Positions 3,297 through 8,887 of a stretch of DNA of 8,887 nt are shown here, in pieces. A program made the position numbers and the translations under genes. Below the pieces are notes generated by a model. The model searched no databases, had not been told where the DNA came from, and saw only the letters and a program-made list of their open reading frames with translations. How positions within the stretch are numbered: the first letter of the stretch is position 1; each line of letters opens with the position of its first letter. This DNA comes from a virus. Its lineage: Duplodnaviria; Heunggongvirae; Uroviricota; Caudoviricetes. The DNA lies in the IMG/VR virus record IMGVR_UViG_2671180695_000003. The stretch is one strand, 5' to 3'.

Positions 3297-3728
3297 ATGT
3301 TCCTGAAAACAGAACAATTTGAATATAACGGTGTATCCGTCACGCTTTCTGAGCTGTCTGCGCTGCAGCGTATTGAGCATCTTGCCCTCCTGAAACGGCG
3401 GGCAGAAGAGGCTGAAGCCAGCGGCAACCTGCAGGTGAGTGTGGAAGATCTTGTCAGAACCGGCGCGTTTCTGGTGGCGATGTCCCTGTGGCATAACCAT
3501 CCACAGAAAACGCAGTCACCGTCAATGAATGAGGCCGTGATGAAGATAGAGCAGGAAGTGCTCACCACCTGGCCTGCCGATGCCATTGCCCGGGCGGAAG
3601 ACGTGGTGTTGTGCTTGTCCGGGATGATCGAAGCTGTTCGTCCGGATACTGATATTACTGAAGTGGCGAAAAATAACACGCTGACTGATGATGATTTTTC
3701 TGCGGGAAAGTCTTCGACGGCGAGCTGA
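3297..3728 (+). CDS. G: Tail assembly chaperone, lambda gpG-like (143 aa, zero-frame product)
   Basis: ATG at 3297 is preceded by GAGAGA. The translation MFLKTEQFEYNGVSVTLSELSALQRIEHLALLKRRAEEA...DDDFSAGKSSTAS matches recalled lambda G, and the slippery heptamer lies 6 codons before the stop, as in lambda. Confidence 0.92.
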   Translation: MFLKTEQFEYNGVSVTLSELSALQRIEHLALLKRRAEEAEASGNLQVSVEDLVRTGAFLVAMSLWHNHPQKTQSPSMNEAVMKIEQEVLTTWPADAIARAEDVVLCLSGMIEAVRPDTDITEVAKNNTLTDDDFSAGKSSTAS

Positions 3729-4168
3729 ACTTTGCCCTCAGACTGGCGCGTGAGATGGGGAGACCCGACTGGCGCGCCATGCTTGCCGGGATGACATCCA
3801 CCGAATATGCCGACTGGCACCGTTTTTACCGCACGCATTATTTTCAGGATACCCAGCTGGATATGCATTTTTCCGGGCTGACGTACGCTGTACTCAGCCT
3901 GTTTTTTTGCGATCCGGATATGCATCCCTCTGATTTCAGTCTGCTTGTCCCCCGGCATGAGGAAGAGCAGGTGGAGAGGCCGGATGAGGACAAAATGCTG
4001 ATGCAGAAAGCGGCAGGACTTGCCGGAGGCGTCCGGTTCGGTGGGGACGGAGGGCGCGATATTTTATCGTCTGCGGATGTGGCGGATGTCATGGTGGATG
4101 ATGCCGCATTAATGATGGCTTCAGCGGGGATTCCGGGAGGTGTGAGATATGTCCCAGCCGGTTGGTGA
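3297..4168 (+). CDS. GT: Tail assembly chaperone fusion gpGT-like, made by -1 frameshift at 3704-3710 (G frame 3297-3710, then T frame 3710-4168; predicted ~290 aa)
   Basis: The -1 frame translation after the slip, VFDGELNFALRLAREMGRPDWRAMLAGMTSTEYADWHRFYRTHYF...AGLAGGVRFG..., matches recalled lambda T/GT. The ATG at 3755 listed in the ORF track is internal to this frame and has no convincing SD. In lambda, T is made only as the GT fusion (established knowledge). Confidence 0.85.
3704..3710 (+). promoter_or_regulatory. Programmed -1 ribosomal frameshift slippery heptamer G_GGA_AAG (zero-frame codons GGA AAG)
   Basis: Read directly: GGGAAAG at 3704-3710 with the G frame reading GGA(3705-3707) AAG(3708-3710). 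The -1 frame is open from 3710 (GTC TTC GAC GGC GAG CTG AAC ...) through to the stop at 4166-4168. This is the same heptamer and arrangement as the lambda G/GT site. Confidence 0.88.
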
Positions 4169-6647
4169 TCTTGTTATTGACCTGAGTCTGGATGCTGTCC
4201 GTTTCGATGAGCAGATGAGCCGGGTAAGGCGTCATTTTTCAGGTCTGGATACCGACGCCAGAAAAACCGCCAGTGCTGTTGAACAGGGCCTGAGCCGCCA
4301 GGCGCTGGCTGCACAAAAAGCCGGGATTTCCGTCGGGCAGTATAAAGCGGCCATGCGAACCCTGCCCGCACAGTTTACGGATATCGCCACGCAGCTTGCC
4401 GGTGGTCAGAATCCCTGGCTGATCCTGCTGCAACAGGGCGGTCAGGTGAAGGACTCCTTCGGCGGGATGATCCCCATGTTCAGGGGGCTTGCCGGTGCGA
4501 TCACCCTGCCGATGGTCGGGGTCACCTCGCTGGCGGTGGCGACAGGTGCGCTGGTGTACGCCTGGTACCAGGGAGATTCCACGCTTTCAGCGTTTAATAA
4601 AACCCTGGTTCTTTCCGGTAATCAGTCCGGACTGACTGCCGATCGTATGCTGACTCTCTCAAGAGCCGGGCAGGCAGCAGGGCTGACGTTTAACCAGGCG
4701 AGAGAGTCACTGGCAGCCCTGGTGAATGCTGGTGTGCGTGGTGGTGAACAGTTTGATGCCATCAACCAGAGTGTCGCGCGTTTTGCGTCTGCATCCGGTG
4801 TGGAGGTGGATAAAGTCGCTGAAGCCTTCGGGAAGCTGACCACTGACCCGACGTCGGGACTGATGGCGATGGCGCGCCAGTTCCGTAACGTGACGGCAGA
4901 GCAGATTGCGTATGTTGCACAGCTGCAGCGTTCCGGAGACGAGGCCGGGGCATTGCAGGAGGAGGCGGATAAAACAGGGAAGGCATTCAAATCGATGTGG
5001 GATGCCATTCTGGATATCGGTCGTCCTGAATCCTCAGCGGATATGCTCGCCAGTGCGCAGAAGGCATTTGATGAGGCGGATAAAAAATGGCAGTGGTACC
5101 AGAGCCGGAGCCAGCGCCGGGGAAAGACCTCCTCTTTTCGTGCGAACCTTCAGGGGGCATGGGATGACAGGGAAAATGCCCGTCTGGGTCTGGCAGCGGC
5201 CACGCTGCAGTCGGATATGGAAAAAGCCGGTGAACTGGCGGCAAGGGACCGGGCTGAGCGTGAGGCGTCACAGCTGAAGTATACCGGAGAGGCGCAGAAG
5301 GCGTATGAGCGCCTGCAGACGCCGCTGGATAAATATACCGCCCGTCAGAAAGAGCTGAATAAGGCCCTGAAAGACGGAAAAATCCTGCAGGCGGATTACA
5401 ACACGCTGATGGCGTCGGCAAAAAAGGATTATGAATCGACGCTGAAAAAGCCGTCCGGTGTGAAGGTGTCTGCCGGTGAGCGCCAGGAAGACCGGGCGCA
5501 TGCAGCCATGCTGGCGCTTGAAACCGAGCTCAGGACGCTGGAAAAACACAGCGGTGTGAATGAGAAAATCAGCCAGCAGCGCCGGGATTTATGGGAAGCG
5601 GAAAATCAGTATGTGGTCCTGAAAGAGGCCGCCACGAAACGGCAGTTATCTGAGCAGGAAAAATCCCTGCTGGCTCATGAGAAAGAGACGCTGGAGTACA
5701 AACGCCAGCTGGCTGAGCTGGGAGACAAGATTGAACACCAGAAGCGGCTGAATGAGCTGGCACAGCAGGCGGCGCGGTTTGAACAGCAGCAGAGCGCGAA
5801 GCAGGCGGCAATCAGCGCAAAAGCCCGCGGCCTCACTGACCGTCAGGCGCAGCGGGAGTCGGAAGAGCAGCGCCTTCGTGAGGTGTACGGTGATAATCCG
5901 GCTGCGCTGGCGAAGGCCACATCTGCACTGAAGAACACCTGGTCTGCGGAGGAGCAGCTTCGTGGAAGCTGGATGGCCGGGATGAAGTCCGGCTGGGGCG
6001 AGTGGGCGGAAAGTGCGACGGACAGTTTTTCGCAGGTTAAAAACGCGGCCACGCAGACCTTTGACGGTATTGCACAGAATATGGCAGCGATGCTGACCGG
6101 CAGCGAACAGAACTGGCGGGGATTCACCCGTTCGGTGCTCTCCATGCTGACAGAAATTCTGCTTAAGCAGGCAATGGTGGGGATTGTCGGGAGTATCGGC
6201 AGCGCCATTGGCGGGGCTGTTGGTGGCGGCGCATCCGCGTCAGGCGGTACAGCCATTCAGGCCGCTGCGGCGAAATTCCATTTTGCAACCGGAGGATTTA
6301 CGGGAACCGGCGGCAAATATGAGCCAGCGGGAATTGTTCACCGCGGTGAATTCGTCTTCACGAAGGAGGCAACCAGCCGGATTGGCGTGGGGAATCTCTA
6401 CCGGCTGATGCGCGGCTATGCCACCGGCGGTTATGTCGGTACACCGGGCAGCATGGCGGACAGCCGGTCGCAGGCGTCCGGGACGTTTGAGCAGAATAAC
6501 CATGTGGTGATTAACAACGACGGCACGAACGGTCAGATAGGGCCACAGGCACTGAAGGCTGTTTATGACGTAGCCCGTAAGGCGGCAATGGATGTTGTGA
6601 CCGGGCAGATGCGCGATGGTGGTCTGTTCTCCGGAGGTGGACGATGA
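4149..6647 (+). CDS. H: Tail tape measure (length-determining) protein, lambda gpH-like (832 aa)
   Basis: ATG at 4149 overlaps the 3' end of the T frame by 20 nt. The N-terminus (MSQPVGDLVIDLSLDAVRFDEQMSRVRRHFSG...ISVGQYKAAMRTLPAQFTDIATQLAGGQNPWLILLQQGGQVKDSFGGMIPMF) and C-terminus (...GIVGSIGSAIGGAVGGGASASGGTAIQAAAAKFHFATGGFTGTGGKYEPAGIVHRGEFVFTKEATSRIG...MRDGGLFSGGGR) match recalled lambda H. The long central Q/E/K/R-rich region is predicted to be helical. Confidence 0.93.
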   Translation: MSQPVGDLVIDLSLDAVRFDEQMSRVRRHFSGLDTDARKTASAVEQGLSRQALAAQKAGISVGQYKAAMRTLPAQFTDIATQLAGGQNPWLILLQQGGQVKDSFGGMIPMFRGLAGAITLPMVGVTSLAVATGALVYAWYQGDSTLSAFNKTLVLSGNQSGLTADRMLTLSRAGQAAGLTFNQARESLAALVNAGVRGGEQFDAINQSVARFASASGVEVDKVAEAFGKLTTDPTSGLMAMARQFRNVTAEQIAYVAQLQRSGDEAGALQEEADKTGKAFKSMWDAILDIGRPESSADMLASAQKAFDEADKKWQWYQSRSQRRGKTSSFRANLQGAWDDRENARLGLAAATLQSDMEKAGELAARDRAEREASQLKYTGEAQKAYERLQTPLDKYTARQKELNKALKDGKILQADYNTLMASAKKDYESTLKKPSGVKVSAGERQEDRAHAAMLALETELRTLEKHSGVNEKISQQRRDLWEAENQYVVLKEAATKRQLSEQEKSLLAHEKETLEYKRQLAELGDKIEHQKRLNELAQQAARFEQQQSAKQAAISAKARGLTDRQAQRESEEQRLREVYGDNPAALAKATSALKNTWSAEEQLRGSWMAGMKSGWGEWAESATDSFSQVKNAATQTFDGIAQNMAAMLTGSEQNWRGFTRSVLSMLTEILLKQAMVGIVGSIGSAIGGAVGGGASASGGTAIQAAAAKFHFATGGFTGTGGKYEPAGIVHRGEFVFTKEATSRIGVGNLYRLMRGYATGGYVGTPGSMADSRSQASGTFEQNNHVVINNDGTNGQIGPQALKAVYDVARKAAMDVVTGQMRDGGLFSGGGR

Positions 6648-7676: not shown

Positions 7677-8420
7677 ATGACAGAGACAGAATCAGCGATT
7701 CTGGCGCACGCCCGGCGATGTGCGCCAGCGGAGTCGTGCGGCTTCGTGGTGAGAACGCCGGAAGGGGAAAGATATTTTCCCTGTGTGAATATCTCCGGTG
7801 AGCCGGAGGCGTATTTCCGTATGGCTCCGGAGGACTGGCTGCAGGCAGAGATGCAGGGTGAGATTGTGGCGCTGGTCCACAGTCACCCCGGTGGTCTGCC
7901 CTGGCTGAGTGAGGCCGACCGGCGGCTGCAGGTGCAGAGTGATTTGCCGTGGTGGCTGGTCTGCCGGGGGGCGATTCACAAGTTCCGCTGTGTGCCGCAT
8001 CTCACCGGGCGGCGCTTTGAGCACGGGGTGACGGACTGTTACACGCTGTTCCGGGATGCTTATCATCTGGCGGGGATTGAGATGCCGGATTTTCATCGCG
8101 AGGATGACTGGTGGCGTCACGGTCAGAATCTCTATCTGGATAATCTGGAGGCCACAGGGCTGTATCAGGTGCCGTTGTCATCAGCACAACCGGGCGATGT
8201 GCTGCTGTGCTGTTTTGGTTCATCGGTGCCGAATCATGCCGCCATTTACTGTGGTGATGGCGAGCTGCTGCACCATATTCCTGAACAACTGAGCAAACGA
8301 GAGAGGTATACCGACAAATGGCAGCGACGCACACACTCCCTCTGGCGTCACCGGGCATGGCGCGCATCTGCCTTTACGGGGATTTACAACGATTTGGCCG
8401 CCGCATCGACCTTCGTGTGA
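7677..8420 (+). CDS. K: Tail tip assembly protein, lambda gpK-like (247-aa long form): N-terminal JAB/MPN (JAMM) metallopeptidase-like domain plus C-terminal NlpC/P60 cysteine peptidase-like domain
   Basis: ATG at 7677 lies 6 nt after the L stop. The JAMM signature is read directly: H68-S-H70-x7-S78-x2-D81 (HSHPGGLPWLSEAD, coords 7878-7919), with upstream acidic residues. NlpC/P60-like Cys121 (TGT 8037-8039, in GVTDCYTLF) and downstream His187/His199 (NHAAIYCGDGELLHH). The translation closely matches recalled lambda K. Confidence 0.9.
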   Translation: MTETESAILAHARRCAPAESCGFVVRTPEGERYFPCVNISGEPEAYFRMAPEDWLQAEMQGEIVALVHSHPGGLPWLSEADRRLQVQSDLPWWLVCRGAIHKFRCVPHLTGRRFEHGVTDCYTLFRDAYHLAGIEMPDFHREDDWWRHGQNLYLDNLEATGLYQVPLSSAQPGDVLLCCFGSSVPNHAAIYCGDGELLHHIPEQLSKRERYTDKWQRRTHSLWRHRAWRASAFTGIYNDLAAASTFV

Positions 8421-8887
8421 AAACGGGGGCTGAAGCCATTCGGGCGCTGGCCACACAGCTCCCGGCGTTTCGTCAGAAACTGAGCGACGGCTGGTATCAG
8501 GTACGGATTGCCGGGCGGGACGTCAGCACGTCCGGGTTAACGGCGCAGTTACATGAGACTCTGCCTGATGGCGCTGTGATTCATATTGTTCCCAGAGTCG
8601 CCGGGGCCAAGTCAGGTGGCGTATTCCAGATTGTCCTGGGAGCAGCCGCCATTGCCGGATCATTCTTTACTGCCGGAGCCACCCTTGCAGCGTGGGGGGC
8701 AGCCATTGGGGCCGGTGGTATGACCGGCATCCTGTTTTCTCTCGGTGCCAGTATGGTGCTCGGTGGTGTGGCCCAGATGCTGGCACCGAAAGCCAGAACT
8801 CCCCGTATACAGACAACGGATAACGGTAAGCAGAACACCTATTTCTCCTCACTGGATAACATGGTTGCCCAGGGCAATGTTCTGCCT
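8318..8887 (+). CDS. I: Tail assembly protein, lambda gpI-like; 3'-truncated by the window edge (first 190 codons): N-terminal ubiquitin-like beta-grasp region followed by a glycine-rich hydrophobic segment
   Basis: This ORF is absent from the supplied track because it has no stop in the window. I translated it myself from the ATG at 8318 (frame +1 relative to K, inside K codons AAA-TGG), with GAGAGG 12 nt upstream. The translation MAATHTLPLASPGMARICLYGDLQRFGRRIDLRVKTGAEAIRALATQLPAFRQKLSDGWYQVRIAGRDVSTSGLTAQLHETLPDGAVIHIVPRVAGAKSGGVFQIVLGAAAIAGSFFTAGATLAAWGAAIGAGGMTGILFSLGASMVLGGVAQMLAPKARTPRIQTTDNGKQNTYFSSLDNMVAQGNVLP matches recalled lambda I. It overlaps K by 103 nt. Confidence 0.88.
   Translation, partial: MAATHTLPLASPGMARICLYGDLQRFGRRIDLRVKTGAEAIRALATQLPAFRQKLSDGWYQVRIAGRDVSTSGLTAQLHETLPDGAVIHIVPRVAGAKSGGVFQIVLGAAAIAGSFFTAGATLAAWGAAIGAGGMTGILFSLGASMVLGGVAQMLAPKARTPRIQTTDNGKQNTYFSSLDNMVAQGNVLP

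What the first reader, a model, noticed from the sequence alone, without database searches (positions are those of the whole stretch)
7677..8887. K/I pair: JAMM/MPN + NlpC/P60 peptidase gene overlapping a ubiquitin-like protein gene inside the tail-tip assembly cassette
The K product carries an intact JAMM metalloprotease signature (HxH-x7-S-x2-D at 7878-7919) and an NlpC/P60-type Cys/His set (Cys121 at 8037-8039). The next gene, I, starts inside K in another frame (103-nt overlap, 8318-8420). Its N-terminal ~85 residues have the character of a ubiquitin-like beta-grasp domain ending near ...VAGAKSGG, followed by a long Gly/Ala-rich hydrophobic segment (~8618-8788). In eukaryotes, JAMM enzymes cleave after ubiquitin-like domains. 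Comparative-genomic work has proposed that the lambda-family K/I pair is a prokaryotic ubiquitin-like processing module, but to my knowledge the substrate, cleavage site and role in tail-tip assembly are not settled. This is the most system-like element in the window. It is a conserved feature of lambdoid tails rather than a new insertion.
Basis: partly seen in the sequence, partly recalled or inferred. Interest (0 to 1): 0.55.

Follow-up and report, generated by a model that had tools for sequence, protein, structure and literature searches.

The report
Lambda tail-tip K protease and I
These are the ordinary lambda tail-tip assembly genes K (a two-headed protease) and I (a tail plug protein made with a removable ubiquitin-like tag); the pairing was predicted in 2006, has recently been reported as shown experimentally, and is not new here.

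Summary
K (7677-8420, 247 aa) has a Prok-JAB/MPN+ domain (E19, H68-S-H70, S78, D81) fused to an NlpC/P60 domain (C121, H187, H199). I (8318 to beyond the window end) starts inside K in the -1 frame. I carries an N-terminal beta-grasp domain, then a 57-residue uncharged Gly/Ala-rich segment.

The window is lambda-like. I is 100% identical to lambda gpI over 190 aa. K differs from lambda K at 7 of 247 residues.

- The K JAB domain best matches P. furiosus JAMM1, an enzyme solved in complex with SAMP2.
- Both catalytic sets are conserved in 158 diverse K homologues.
- 133 of 133 intact I-anchored loci have a JAB+NlpC/P60 K directly upstream.
- I ends its Ubl in an invariant G96-A/S97, the positional equivalent of MoaD's Gly-Gly.
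- Mature lambda tails show gpI only from residue 101 or 134/135 onward.

The idea is not new. Iyer et al. (2006) predicted it. A 2025 conference summary reports that gpK cleaves the Ubl from gpI. An F-pyocin preprint shows removal of the homologue's N-terminal region.

I found no published exact cleavage site. The role of the conserved NlpC/P60 site remains open.

The parts
7677..8420 (+). K gene (tail tip assembly protein K), 247 aa, full-length form
   Evidence: ORF. Homologues align from residue 1-10 to about 227-247. 7 of 247 differences from corrected lambda K.
7686..7970 (+). JAB/MPN+ (JAMM) metalloprotease domain of K, aa 4-98
   Evidence: Pfam PF14464, E 3.8e-14. PDB 2kks, E 3.9e-5. 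Foldseek top hits are P. furiosus JAMM1 (5ld9, and 5lda with SAMP2), Rpn11 and CSN5.
7731..7733 (+). Codon of E19, the JAMM general-base glutamate
   Evidence: Conserved in 85 of 86 diverse homologues. Lost from the 199-aa RefSeq lambda K.
7878..7919 (+). JAMM zinc-site motif H68-S-H70-x7-S78-x2-D81
   Evidence: Regex match. H68, H70 and D81 in 86 of 86; S78 is S or T in 86 of 86.
8007..8348 (+). NlpC/P60 (C40) papain-like peptidase domain of K, aa 111-224
   Evidence: Pfam PF00877, E 5.5e-13. Foldseek matches to MepS/Spr and a C. difficile autolysin.
8037..8039 (+). Codon of C121, the NlpC/P60 nucleophile. The partner histidines are H187 at 8235-8237 and H199 at 8271-8273.
   Evidence: C121, H187 and H199 each in 85 of 86. 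Retained in all 158 unique K ORFs from loci.
8364..8408 (+). C-terminal helix of K (aa 230-244, motif FTxIxNDL), encoded in the overlap with I
   Evidence: AF2 helix 230-244. The motif is conserved in distant K tails.
8318..8420 (+). K/I overlap (103 nt from the lambda-type start; 64 nt from M14 at 8357); dual-coding stretch
   Evidence: Overlaps of 58 or 64 nt in 98 of 126 unique relatives.
8318..8887 (+). I gene (tail tip assembly / plug protein I), first 190 of 223 codons; runs off the window
   Evidence: 100% identical to gpI of PDB 8iyk, 8iyl, 8k35 and 8xcg over 190 aa.
8357..8608 (+). Ubiquitin-like beta-grasp domain of I (aa 14-97), MoaD/SAMP/ThiS type
8603..8620 (+). Predicted processing motif G96-A97-K98-S99-G100-G101
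   Evidence: G96 in 124 of 125, A/S97 in 124 of 125, G101 in 113 of 114. hhalign places G96 opposite MoaD G80. gpI is resolved from residue 101 in closed tails (PMC11101478).
8618..8788 (+). Uncharged Gly/Ala-rich hydrophobic segment (aa 101-157), the H1/H2 helices of mature gpI
   Evidence: 26 of 57 G+A and no charged residue. Described as predicted transmembrane helices H1/H2 in PMC11101478.
8792..8887 (+). Start of the plug / C-terminal structural domain of I (aa 159-190 within the window)
   Evidence: Plug domain 159-175 and beta strands are resolved in lambda tail structures. Conserved NTxFSxLxN..QG..P..YGE motif.

Best explanation
This is the lambda-family tail-tip maturation module.

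The two proteins:
- I is made as a precursor. It has a MoaD/SAMP-like ubiquitin-like domain (aa 14-97), joined through G96-A97-K-S-G-G101 to two very hydrophobic helices and a C-terminal plug domain.
- K is a soluble assembly enzyme that does not end up in the virion. Its N-terminal JAMM zinc protease is the same kind of enzyme that cuts after the C-terminal Gly-Gly of SAMP, MoaD and ubiquitin.

Proposed sequence of events:
1. The C-terminal part of I docks into the J-L tip complex.
2. K's JAB domain recognises the beta-grasp domain and cuts just after it. I predict the cut falls after A97, or within the stretch G96-G101.
3. The ubiquitin-like tag is released.
4. The remaining I (about 98/101-223) stays as a trimeric plug. 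It holds the C-terminus of the tape-measure protein H and closes the tube.
5. The tag probably keeps the hydrophobic helices soluble and blocks later steps (docking of H and M, and of the tube) until the tip is correctly built.

What is shown and what is inferred:
- Shown here: domain identities, conservation of the active sites, the obligate K-I linkage, and the conserved Gly motif.
- Shown by others: the tag is absent from mature tails, the F-pyocin homologue is processed, and gpK cleaves gpI (conference summary only).
- Inferred: the exact bond, that JAB rather than NlpC/P60 does the cut, and the function of the tag.
For: K domains and active sites:
- Pfam hits for both K domains and for I.
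- JAMM and NlpC/P60 catalytic residues are present in 85-86 of 86 representatives at 34-58% identity, and in 158 unique K ORFs from loci.
- The K model (pLDDT 87) best matches P. furiosus JAMM1 (5ld9, and 5lda, the complex with SAMP2), then Rpn11 and CSN5.

I ubiquitin-like domain and its C-terminal motif:
- I residues 77-96 align to MoaD 61-80, so G96-A97 sits where MoaD's Gly-Gly sits.
- G96, A/S97 and G101 are near-invariant.

Linkage of K and I:
- 133 of 133 intact I-anchored loci carry a JAB+NlpC/P60 K directly upstream.
- This includes PA0639, next to PA0640.

State of gpI in mature particles:
- gpI is resolved only from residue 101 or from 134/135.
- gpK is absent from virions by mass spectrometry.
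- The single gpI peptide reported (9.87% coverage) can only be residues 202-223.
- The PA0640 N-terminal region is present in stalled tips and absent from mature F-pyocin.

Direct report:
- Conference summary that gpK cleaves the Ubl from gpI after gpI joins the tip.

Selection on I:
- All 9 nucleotide differences from lambda within I are synonymous.
Against: - The direct experiment is available to me only as a two-sentence conference summary. No data, cleavage site or catalytic-mutant results could be read.
- The hhalign match to MoaD is weak (probability 14%, E 0.002).
- 'Resolved from residue 101' is also what a flexible, uncleaved linker would give.
- The mass-spectrometry argument rests on one peptide from a protein present at 3 copies per virion.
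- The F-pyocin authors saw the N-terminal region removed by unknown host proteases when PA0640 was expressed alone in E. coli, so cleavage does not strictly need K.
- Iyer et al. note prophages where TAPI is fused to J and the neighbouring NlpC/P60 protein lacks JAB. That does not fit a strict JAB-Ubl dependence.
- I could not model the K-I complex.
Confidence: 0.85

Rival explanations
1. The NlpC/P60 cysteine peptidase domain of K, not the JAB domain, makes the cut in I. Alternatively, the two sites act in sequence, with JAB serving mainly to bind and position the ubiquitin-like domain.
For: - The C121/H187/H199 triad is as strongly conserved as the JAMM site.
- Papain-fold enzymes are the commonest deubiquitinases.
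- Iyer et al. raised this possibility and reported JAB-less NlpC/P60 neighbours of TAPI.
- The two K domains are predicted to pack as one unit (pTM 0.80).
Against: - All JAMM zinc ligands and the Glu are also conserved, which argues for a catalytically active JAB.
- The closest structural relatives of the NlpC/P60 part are peptidoglycan endopeptidases (MepS/Spr, an autolysin), not deubiquitinases.
- The conference summary names the 'deubiquitinating domain'.
Confidence: 0.12
2. The NlpC/P60 domain is a peptidoglycan endopeptidase that helps DNA delivery across the cell wall, as proposed for the K-like peptidase g14 of the Rhodobacter gene transfer agent.
For: - Best fold matches are cell-wall endopeptidases.
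- RcGTA g14 degrades peptidoglycan and is needed for tail formation (PMC7296036).
- The lambda enzyme that opens the cell wall is unidentified.
Against: - gpK was not detected in lambda virions by mass spectrometry and was not seen in any tail structure.
- PA0639 is absent from mature F-pyocin.
- PMC12617516 states that lambda virions contain no such enzyme.
- A cytoplasmic assembly factor has no access to the wall of the next host.
Confidence: 0.1
3. [quoted passage not shown] That cut falls in a Gly-rich stretch resembling the I linker region.
For: - The protease for gpH is unknown.
- H has an uncharged Gly/Ala-rich stretch from aa 676 (nt 6174), similar in character to I aa 101-157.
- K has a second conserved active site with no assigned substrate.
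Against: - From my own knowledge of the classical lambda assembly pathway (not checked here), K acts at the J-I-L stage, before H joins.
- gpH is cleaved only after the tail is assembled.
- K is not detected in finished particles.
- There is no comparative or experimental link.
Confidence: 0.05
4. The ubiquitin-like domain is not removed in lambda. It stays attached but disordered, and K acts only as a chaperone.
For: The cryo-EM papers describe the N-terminal domain simply as unresolved, and one speculates that it has a function at infection.
Against: - Conference report of cleavage.
- Processing of PA0640.
- Only the C-terminal peptide was seen by mass spectrometry.
- Strict conservation of both protease active sites.
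- The closed tip lumen that houses the gpI trimer is narrow (about 1-2 nm). It is my own inference that this leaves little room for three extra 9-kDa domains.
Confidence: 0.03

Closest known systems
Bacteriophage lambda gpK / gpI (TAPK/TAPI of Iyer, Burroughs and Aravind 2006)
   Same: It is the same gene pair. I is 100% identical over 190 aa. K is 97% identical (7 of 247 differences, none at catalytic residues). The gene order M-L-K-I and the 103-nt overlap are the same.
   Different: Only neutral sequence variation: 40 of 1211 nt. The window's K is the intact 247-aa form. The RefSeq lambda record annotates 199 aa because the reference lacks one base.
Archaeal JAMM1 / SAMP (P. furiosus JAMM1-SAMP2, H. 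volcanii HvJAMM1-SAMP1) and bacterial JAMM trimming of MoaD/ThiS-like carriers (Mec+/CysO, QbsD/QbsE; the last two from my own knowledge)
   Same: A JAMM zinc protease paired with a MoaD-type beta-grasp protein, cutting at the C-terminal small-residue pair. They are the best structural matches for both partners.
   Different: - In the phage the Ubl is a cis-encoded N-terminal tag on a structural protein.
- The phage motif is Gly-Ala/Ser rather than Gly-Gly.
- There is no E1, sulfur chemistry or conjugation.
- The protease is fused to an NlpC/P60 domain.
Pseudomonas aeruginosa F-pyocin PA0639 / PA0640
   Same: Homologous K (JAB+NlpC/P60, motifs intact) directly upstream of a homologous I. [quoted passage not shown] A K deletion gives tip-less tubes.
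   Different: It is a tailocin rather than a phage. About 35% identity. The authors did not identify the protease.
RcGTA g14 cell-wall peptidase (K-like, 150 aa)
   Same: It sits at the same position in an M-L-K-J type tail cluster and is required for tail formation.
   Different: - At 150 aa it is too short for a JAB+NlpC/P60 fusion.
- From my own knowledge, not checked here, there is no separate I gene with a Ubl.
- It was shown to degrade peptidoglycan and is possibly carried in the tail lumen.
Phage T5 pb3 plug domain
   Same: The mature C-terminal part of I occupies the place, and does the tube-closing job, of the pb3 plug.
   Different: The T5 plug is an internal domain of the hub protein, with no Ubl tag and no dedicated protease.

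Membership tests
JAMM/MPN+ metalloproteases (Prok-JAB, PF14464) | Profile match above the curated threshold | tested here: met
   53 bits against a cutoff of 25, E 3.8e-14, aa 4-98.
JAMM/MPN+ metalloproteases (Prok-JAB, PF14464) | E-x(n)-H-S/T-H-x7-S-x2-D catalytic/zinc motif | tested here: met
   E19 and H68-S-H70-x7-S78-x2-D81. Conserved in 85-86 of 86 representatives.
JAMM/MPN+ metalloproteases (Prok-JAB, PF14464) | MPN fold | tested here: met
   AF2 model with pLDDT 87. Foldseek probability 1.00 to JAMM1 (5ld9), Rpn11 and CSN5.
JAMM/MPN+ metalloproteases (Prok-JAB, PF14464) | Zinc-dependent cleavage after a Ubl C-terminus | not testable with these tools
   Only a conference summary reports gpK cleaving gpI.
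NlpC/P60 (C40) peptidases, PF00877 | Profile match above the curated threshold | tested here: met
   49.2 bits against a cutoff of 23, E 5.5e-13, aa 111-224, covering the full profile 1-105.
NlpC/P60 (C40) peptidases, PF00877 | Conserved Cys-His-His/polar catalytic triad | tested here: met
   C121, H187 and H199 each in 85 of 86. All 158 locus-derived ORFs keep them.
NlpC/P60 (C40) peptidases, PF00877 | Peptidoglycan (gamma-D-Glu-mDAP or cross-link) endopeptidase activity | not testable with these tools
   Fold neighbours are MepS/Spr and an autolysin. K is absent from virions.
Lambda_tail_I family, PF06805 | Profile match above the curated threshold | tested here: met
   100.2 bits against a cutoff of 23.8, E 8.8e-29, aa 14-97. 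Identical to lambda gpI.
Ubiquitin-like beta-grasp, ThiS/MoaD/SAMP/Urm1 clade | Beta-grasp fold | tested here: met
Ubiquitin-like beta-grasp, ThiS/MoaD/SAMP/Urm1 clade | C-terminal Gly-Gly at the end of the last strand's tail | tested here: inconclusive
   The equivalent positions are G96-A/S97 (Gly invariant, second residue Ala or Ser). They are internal, not terminal, and are followed by K-x-G/A-G101.
Ubiquitin-like beta-grasp, ThiS/MoaD/SAMP/Urm1 clade | Activation by an E1-like adenylating enzyme (sulfur carrier or conjugation) | not tested
   No E1-like gene lies between M, L, K, I and J in the window or in the annotated phage loci viewed. The rest of the genomes was not searched.

The most novel reading that the evidence does not exclude
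The strictly conserved NlpC/P60 active site of K has its own, still unknown, substrate in tail assembly. Two possibilities:
- It makes the unexplained gpH to gpH* cut in the Gly-rich region of the tape-measure protein.
- It acts as a transpeptidase, forming an acyl-enzyme with the released ubiquitin-like domain and transferring it. That would be an E1-independent Ubl ligation.
Probability: 0.08. Interest if true: 0.65.

Novelty: already known. Interest (0 to 1): 0.2.

Why it matters
The K/I pair is a clear bacterial-virus example of a ubiquitin-like domain paired with a JAMM 'deubiquitinase'. It is used as a removable tag that orders the steps of building a phage tail tip. It bears on the origin of ubiquitin signalling and on the engineering of phage tails and tailocins.

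In this window it is the standard lambda version, so the window adds no new biology.

The useful residue of this analysis:
- A sharpened, testable prediction of the scissile site: after G96-A97, with the new N-terminus at about K98-G101.
- The second active site of K is as conserved as the first and remains unexplained.
- A reminder that the RefSeq lambda K annotation is truncated by a one-base reference error.

Tried and rejected
- **Programmed -1 frameshift making a K-I fusion.** I lies in the -1 frame of K. I rejected this for three reasons: there is no in-phase slippery heptamer in 8285-8420; in many relatives a stop codon immediately precedes the I start; and the K-I fusion proteins in the databases are singletons with different junctions, so they are errors or pseudogenes.
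- **Natural K-I fusions as a surrogate for a complex model.** Pointless, because no coordinates or PAE are returned.
- **Scans with large alignments.** Sub-alignments A2 and A5 worked.
- **Sequence-profile search of I against the PDB.** It did not reach MoaD/ThiS. Only the fold comparison and hhalign did.
- **Co-loss test** (JAB-less K paired with Ubl-less I). My 137 I-anchored loci contained no JAB-less K. The one apparent exception, L208, is a degraded element that keeps only the last 91 aa of K. The JAB-less cases mentioned by Iyer et al. were therefore not examined.
- **N-terminal part of gpI as the cell-wall hydrolase** (speculated in PMC11101478). Unlikely: it is a MoaD-like beta-grasp with no hydrolase fold.
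- **Literature.** I searched for a full paper on gpK cleaving gpI and found only the conference summary.
Full report
**What is in the sequence**

The window is a lambdoid head-to-tail block: E, FII, Z, U, V, G/T, H, M, L, K, I. In the finding's region there are two genes.

- K runs from ATG 7677 to TGA 8420 and encodes 247 aa.
- I starts at ATG 8318, inside K and in the -1 frame, and runs off the window end after 190 codons.

- HSHPGGLPWLSEAD is aa 68-81, nt 7878-7919.
- Cys121 is at 8037-8039.
- The overlap 8318-8420 is 103 nt.
- Residues 101-157 of I (8618-8788) have 26 of 57 Gly+Ala and no charged residue.

Pfam results:

| Protein | Family | E-value | Residues |
|---|---|---|---|
| K | Prok-JAB | 3.8e-14 | 4-98 |
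| K | NLPC_P60 | 5.5e-13 | 111-224 |
| I | Lambda_tail_I | 8.8e-29 | 14-97 |
| L (upstream) | Phage_tail_L | 3.2e-100 | 29-230 |
| M (upstream) | Phage_min_tail | 7.2e-39 | 2-108 |

**Identity with lambda**

- I is 100% identical over all 190 residues to lambda gpI as deposited in PDB 8iyk, 8iyl, 8k35 and 8xcg.
- K differs from lambda K at 7 of 247 residues, none of them catalytic.
- The DNA differs at 40 of 1211 positions.
- All nine differences inside I are synonymous.
- The closest phage records are lambda-like Escherichia phages at about 97% identity.

**K is a conserved two-site enzyme**

A search of 1.84 billion representatives returned 2745 relatives. I aligned 86 full-length ones at 34-58% identity.

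| Residue | Conserved in |
|---|---|
| E19 | 85 of 86 |
| H68, H70, D81 | 86 of 86 |
| S78 (Ser or Thr) | 86 of 86 |
| C121, H187, H199 | 85 of 86 each |

All 158 unique K ORFs recovered from genomic and viral loci keep both sets of residues. The few regex failures were spacing variants.

The AlphaFold model of K has pLDDT 87 and pTM 0.80, with the two domains packed together. Foldseek gives these best matches:
- JAB half: Pyrococcus furiosus JAMM1 (5ld9, and 5lda, the complex with the ubiquitin-like SAMP2), then Rpn11 and CSN5.
- NlpC/P60 half: MepS/Spr and a C. difficile autolysin.

**I carries a MoaD/SAMP-type ubiquitin-like tag**

- a MoaD-related protein (1v8c)
- SAMP1
- MoaD
- ThiS/CysO
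- Urm1

This is exactly the relationship Iyer et al. proposed from sequence profiles.

In 126 unique I homologues the domain ends in P92-x3-G96-[A/S]97-K-x-[G/A]-G101:
- G96 in 124 of 125
- A/S97 in 124 of 125
- G101 in 113 of 114

hhalign places I 77-96 (QLHETLPDGAVIHIVPRVAG) on E. coli MoaD 61-80 (SFDHPLTDGDEVAFFPPVTG). G96-A97 therefore occupies the positions of MoaD's terminal Gly-Gly. The score is weak (E 0.002), but the alignment has no gaps and agrees with the fold match. I therefore predict the scissile bond lies after A97, or at least within G96-G101.

**The pair is obligately linked**

When I anchored the search on I rather than on K, 133 of 134 loci with enough upstream sequence had a JAB+NlpC/P60 gene directly upstream. 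The one exception, L208, is a degraded element that keeps only the last 91 residues of K.

The same M-L-K-I-J order is annotated in three further phages:
- Burkholderia phiE125
- the T1-like phage ADB-2
- the HK97-like phage HK446

The Ubl part of I alone finds 868 phage records.

The gene overlap is itself conserved.
- Counted from the M14-equivalent start, it is 58 or 64 nt in 98 of 126 unique cases.
- It encodes both a conserved C-terminal helix of K (FTxIxNDL) and the first strand of the Ubl.
- The lambda clade uses an upstream ATG (8318 here, with a GAGAGG Shine-Dalgarno). This adds a conserved 13-residue extension.

**What is already known**

- Iyer, Burroughs and Aravind (2006) described TAPI as a ThiS/MoaD-like Ubl with a conserved C-terminal glycine, and TAPK as JAB+NlpC/P60. 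They predicted that JAB releases the Ubl by cutting at that glycine.
- Cryo-EM of lambda shows gpI only from residue 134/135, or from residue 101 in the closed tail. It forms a trimeric plug that grips the C-terminal helix of gpH.
- gpK is not seen in those structures and was not detected by mass spectrometry.
- The one gpI peptide in that data set, at 9.87% coverage, can only be the 22-residue C-terminal peptide 202-223.
[quoted passage not shown] Deleting the K homologue PA0639 gives tip-less tubes. The protease was left open. I find that PA0639 has intact JAMM and NlpC/P60 motifs.
- I found no full paper.

**Most likely mechanism and open points**

1. The Ubl is a removable tag on a very hydrophobic plug protein.
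2. K's JAB domain removes it at the tip-complex stage.
3. K and the tag leave.
4. The mature I plugs the tube and anchors the tape measure.

I rate this 0.85.

In the texts I could search, three things are unpublished or untested:
- the exact bond
- direct proof that JAB rather than the cysteine site does the cutting
- any function for the equally conserved NlpC/P60 site

The candidates for the NlpC/P60 site are a second proteolytic step, a peptidoglycan role as in RcGTA g14, or gpH processing. None has support in lambda, and K's absence from virions argues against a role at infection.

**Verdict**

The feature is the known lambda K/I module in essentially reference form. Novelty: already known. 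Interest: low (0.2).

Noticed in passing
window about 7811-7812 (lambda NC_001416 about 14266/14267); L241, L081-L092: The RefSeq lambda genome lacks one base (G) here relative to this window, to L001, and to at least 10 contigs that otherwise match lambda 13000-15700 with zero mismatches. The missing base splits K. RefSeq therefore annotates a 199-aa K starting at M49, which lacks E19 and half of the MPN fold. This looks like an error in the old reference sequence. From memory, it is listed among the known differences of commercial lambda DNA.
   Followed up: yes
L081-L093, L103, L104, L106, L107, L110, L112, L116, L134, L141 (genome contigs): Lambda DNA appears on short or low-coverage contigs in assemblies labelled Neobacillus, Pseudoxanthomonas, Enterococcus, Paenibacillus, Bradyrhizobium, Chromatium, Streptomyces-like and others. 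K is about 97% identical to the window throughout, and about ten of these contigs match the lambda reference with 0 mismatches over 2-2.7 kb. These are almost certainly lambda spike-in or laboratory contamination, not prophages of those species.
   Followed up: partly
L114:3675-4214 and 4245-4808; L164:3431-3970 and 4001-4564: Two complete I genes (Ubl + plug) lie in tandem downstream of a single K, in a Budvicia prophage and in one viral contig.
   Followed up: no
L206, L213, L220, L226-L228; L301 (HK446) 2715-2979: Extra DNA (0.3-2.1 kb) is inserted between K and I in some relatives. In HK446 it is a small ORF followed by an annotated terminator. This breaks the usual K/I overlap.
   Followed up: no
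window 4149-6647 (H), especially 6174 to about 6300: The tape-measure ORF is 832 aa, against the 853 aa quoted for lambda gpH. From aa 676 it has an uncharged Gly/Ala-rich stretch (GSIGSAIGGAVGGGASASGG...) resembling I aa 101-157. It lies in the region where gpH is cut to gpH* by an unknown protease.
   Followed up: no
window 3704-3710: GGGAAAG lies near the end of G (3297-3728), followed by the T ORF (3755-4168). This is the expected lambda G/GT -1 frameshift site.
   Followed up: no
window 8318-8356: The 13-residue N-terminal extension of I (MAATHTLPLASPG) is predicted disordered (pLDDT 48). It is absent from most relatives, which start at the M14 equivalent behind a GGAG Shine-Dalgarno embedded in K's conserved WRH motif. 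It is conserved in the lambda, Morganella and E. albertii clade.
   Followed up: partly
L296, L297 (2753-3115 and 3130-3480); L298: Some distant K homologues have two NlpC/P60 domains in tandem after the JAB domain. One (L298) shows NlpC/P60 before a weak JAB match.
   Followed up: no
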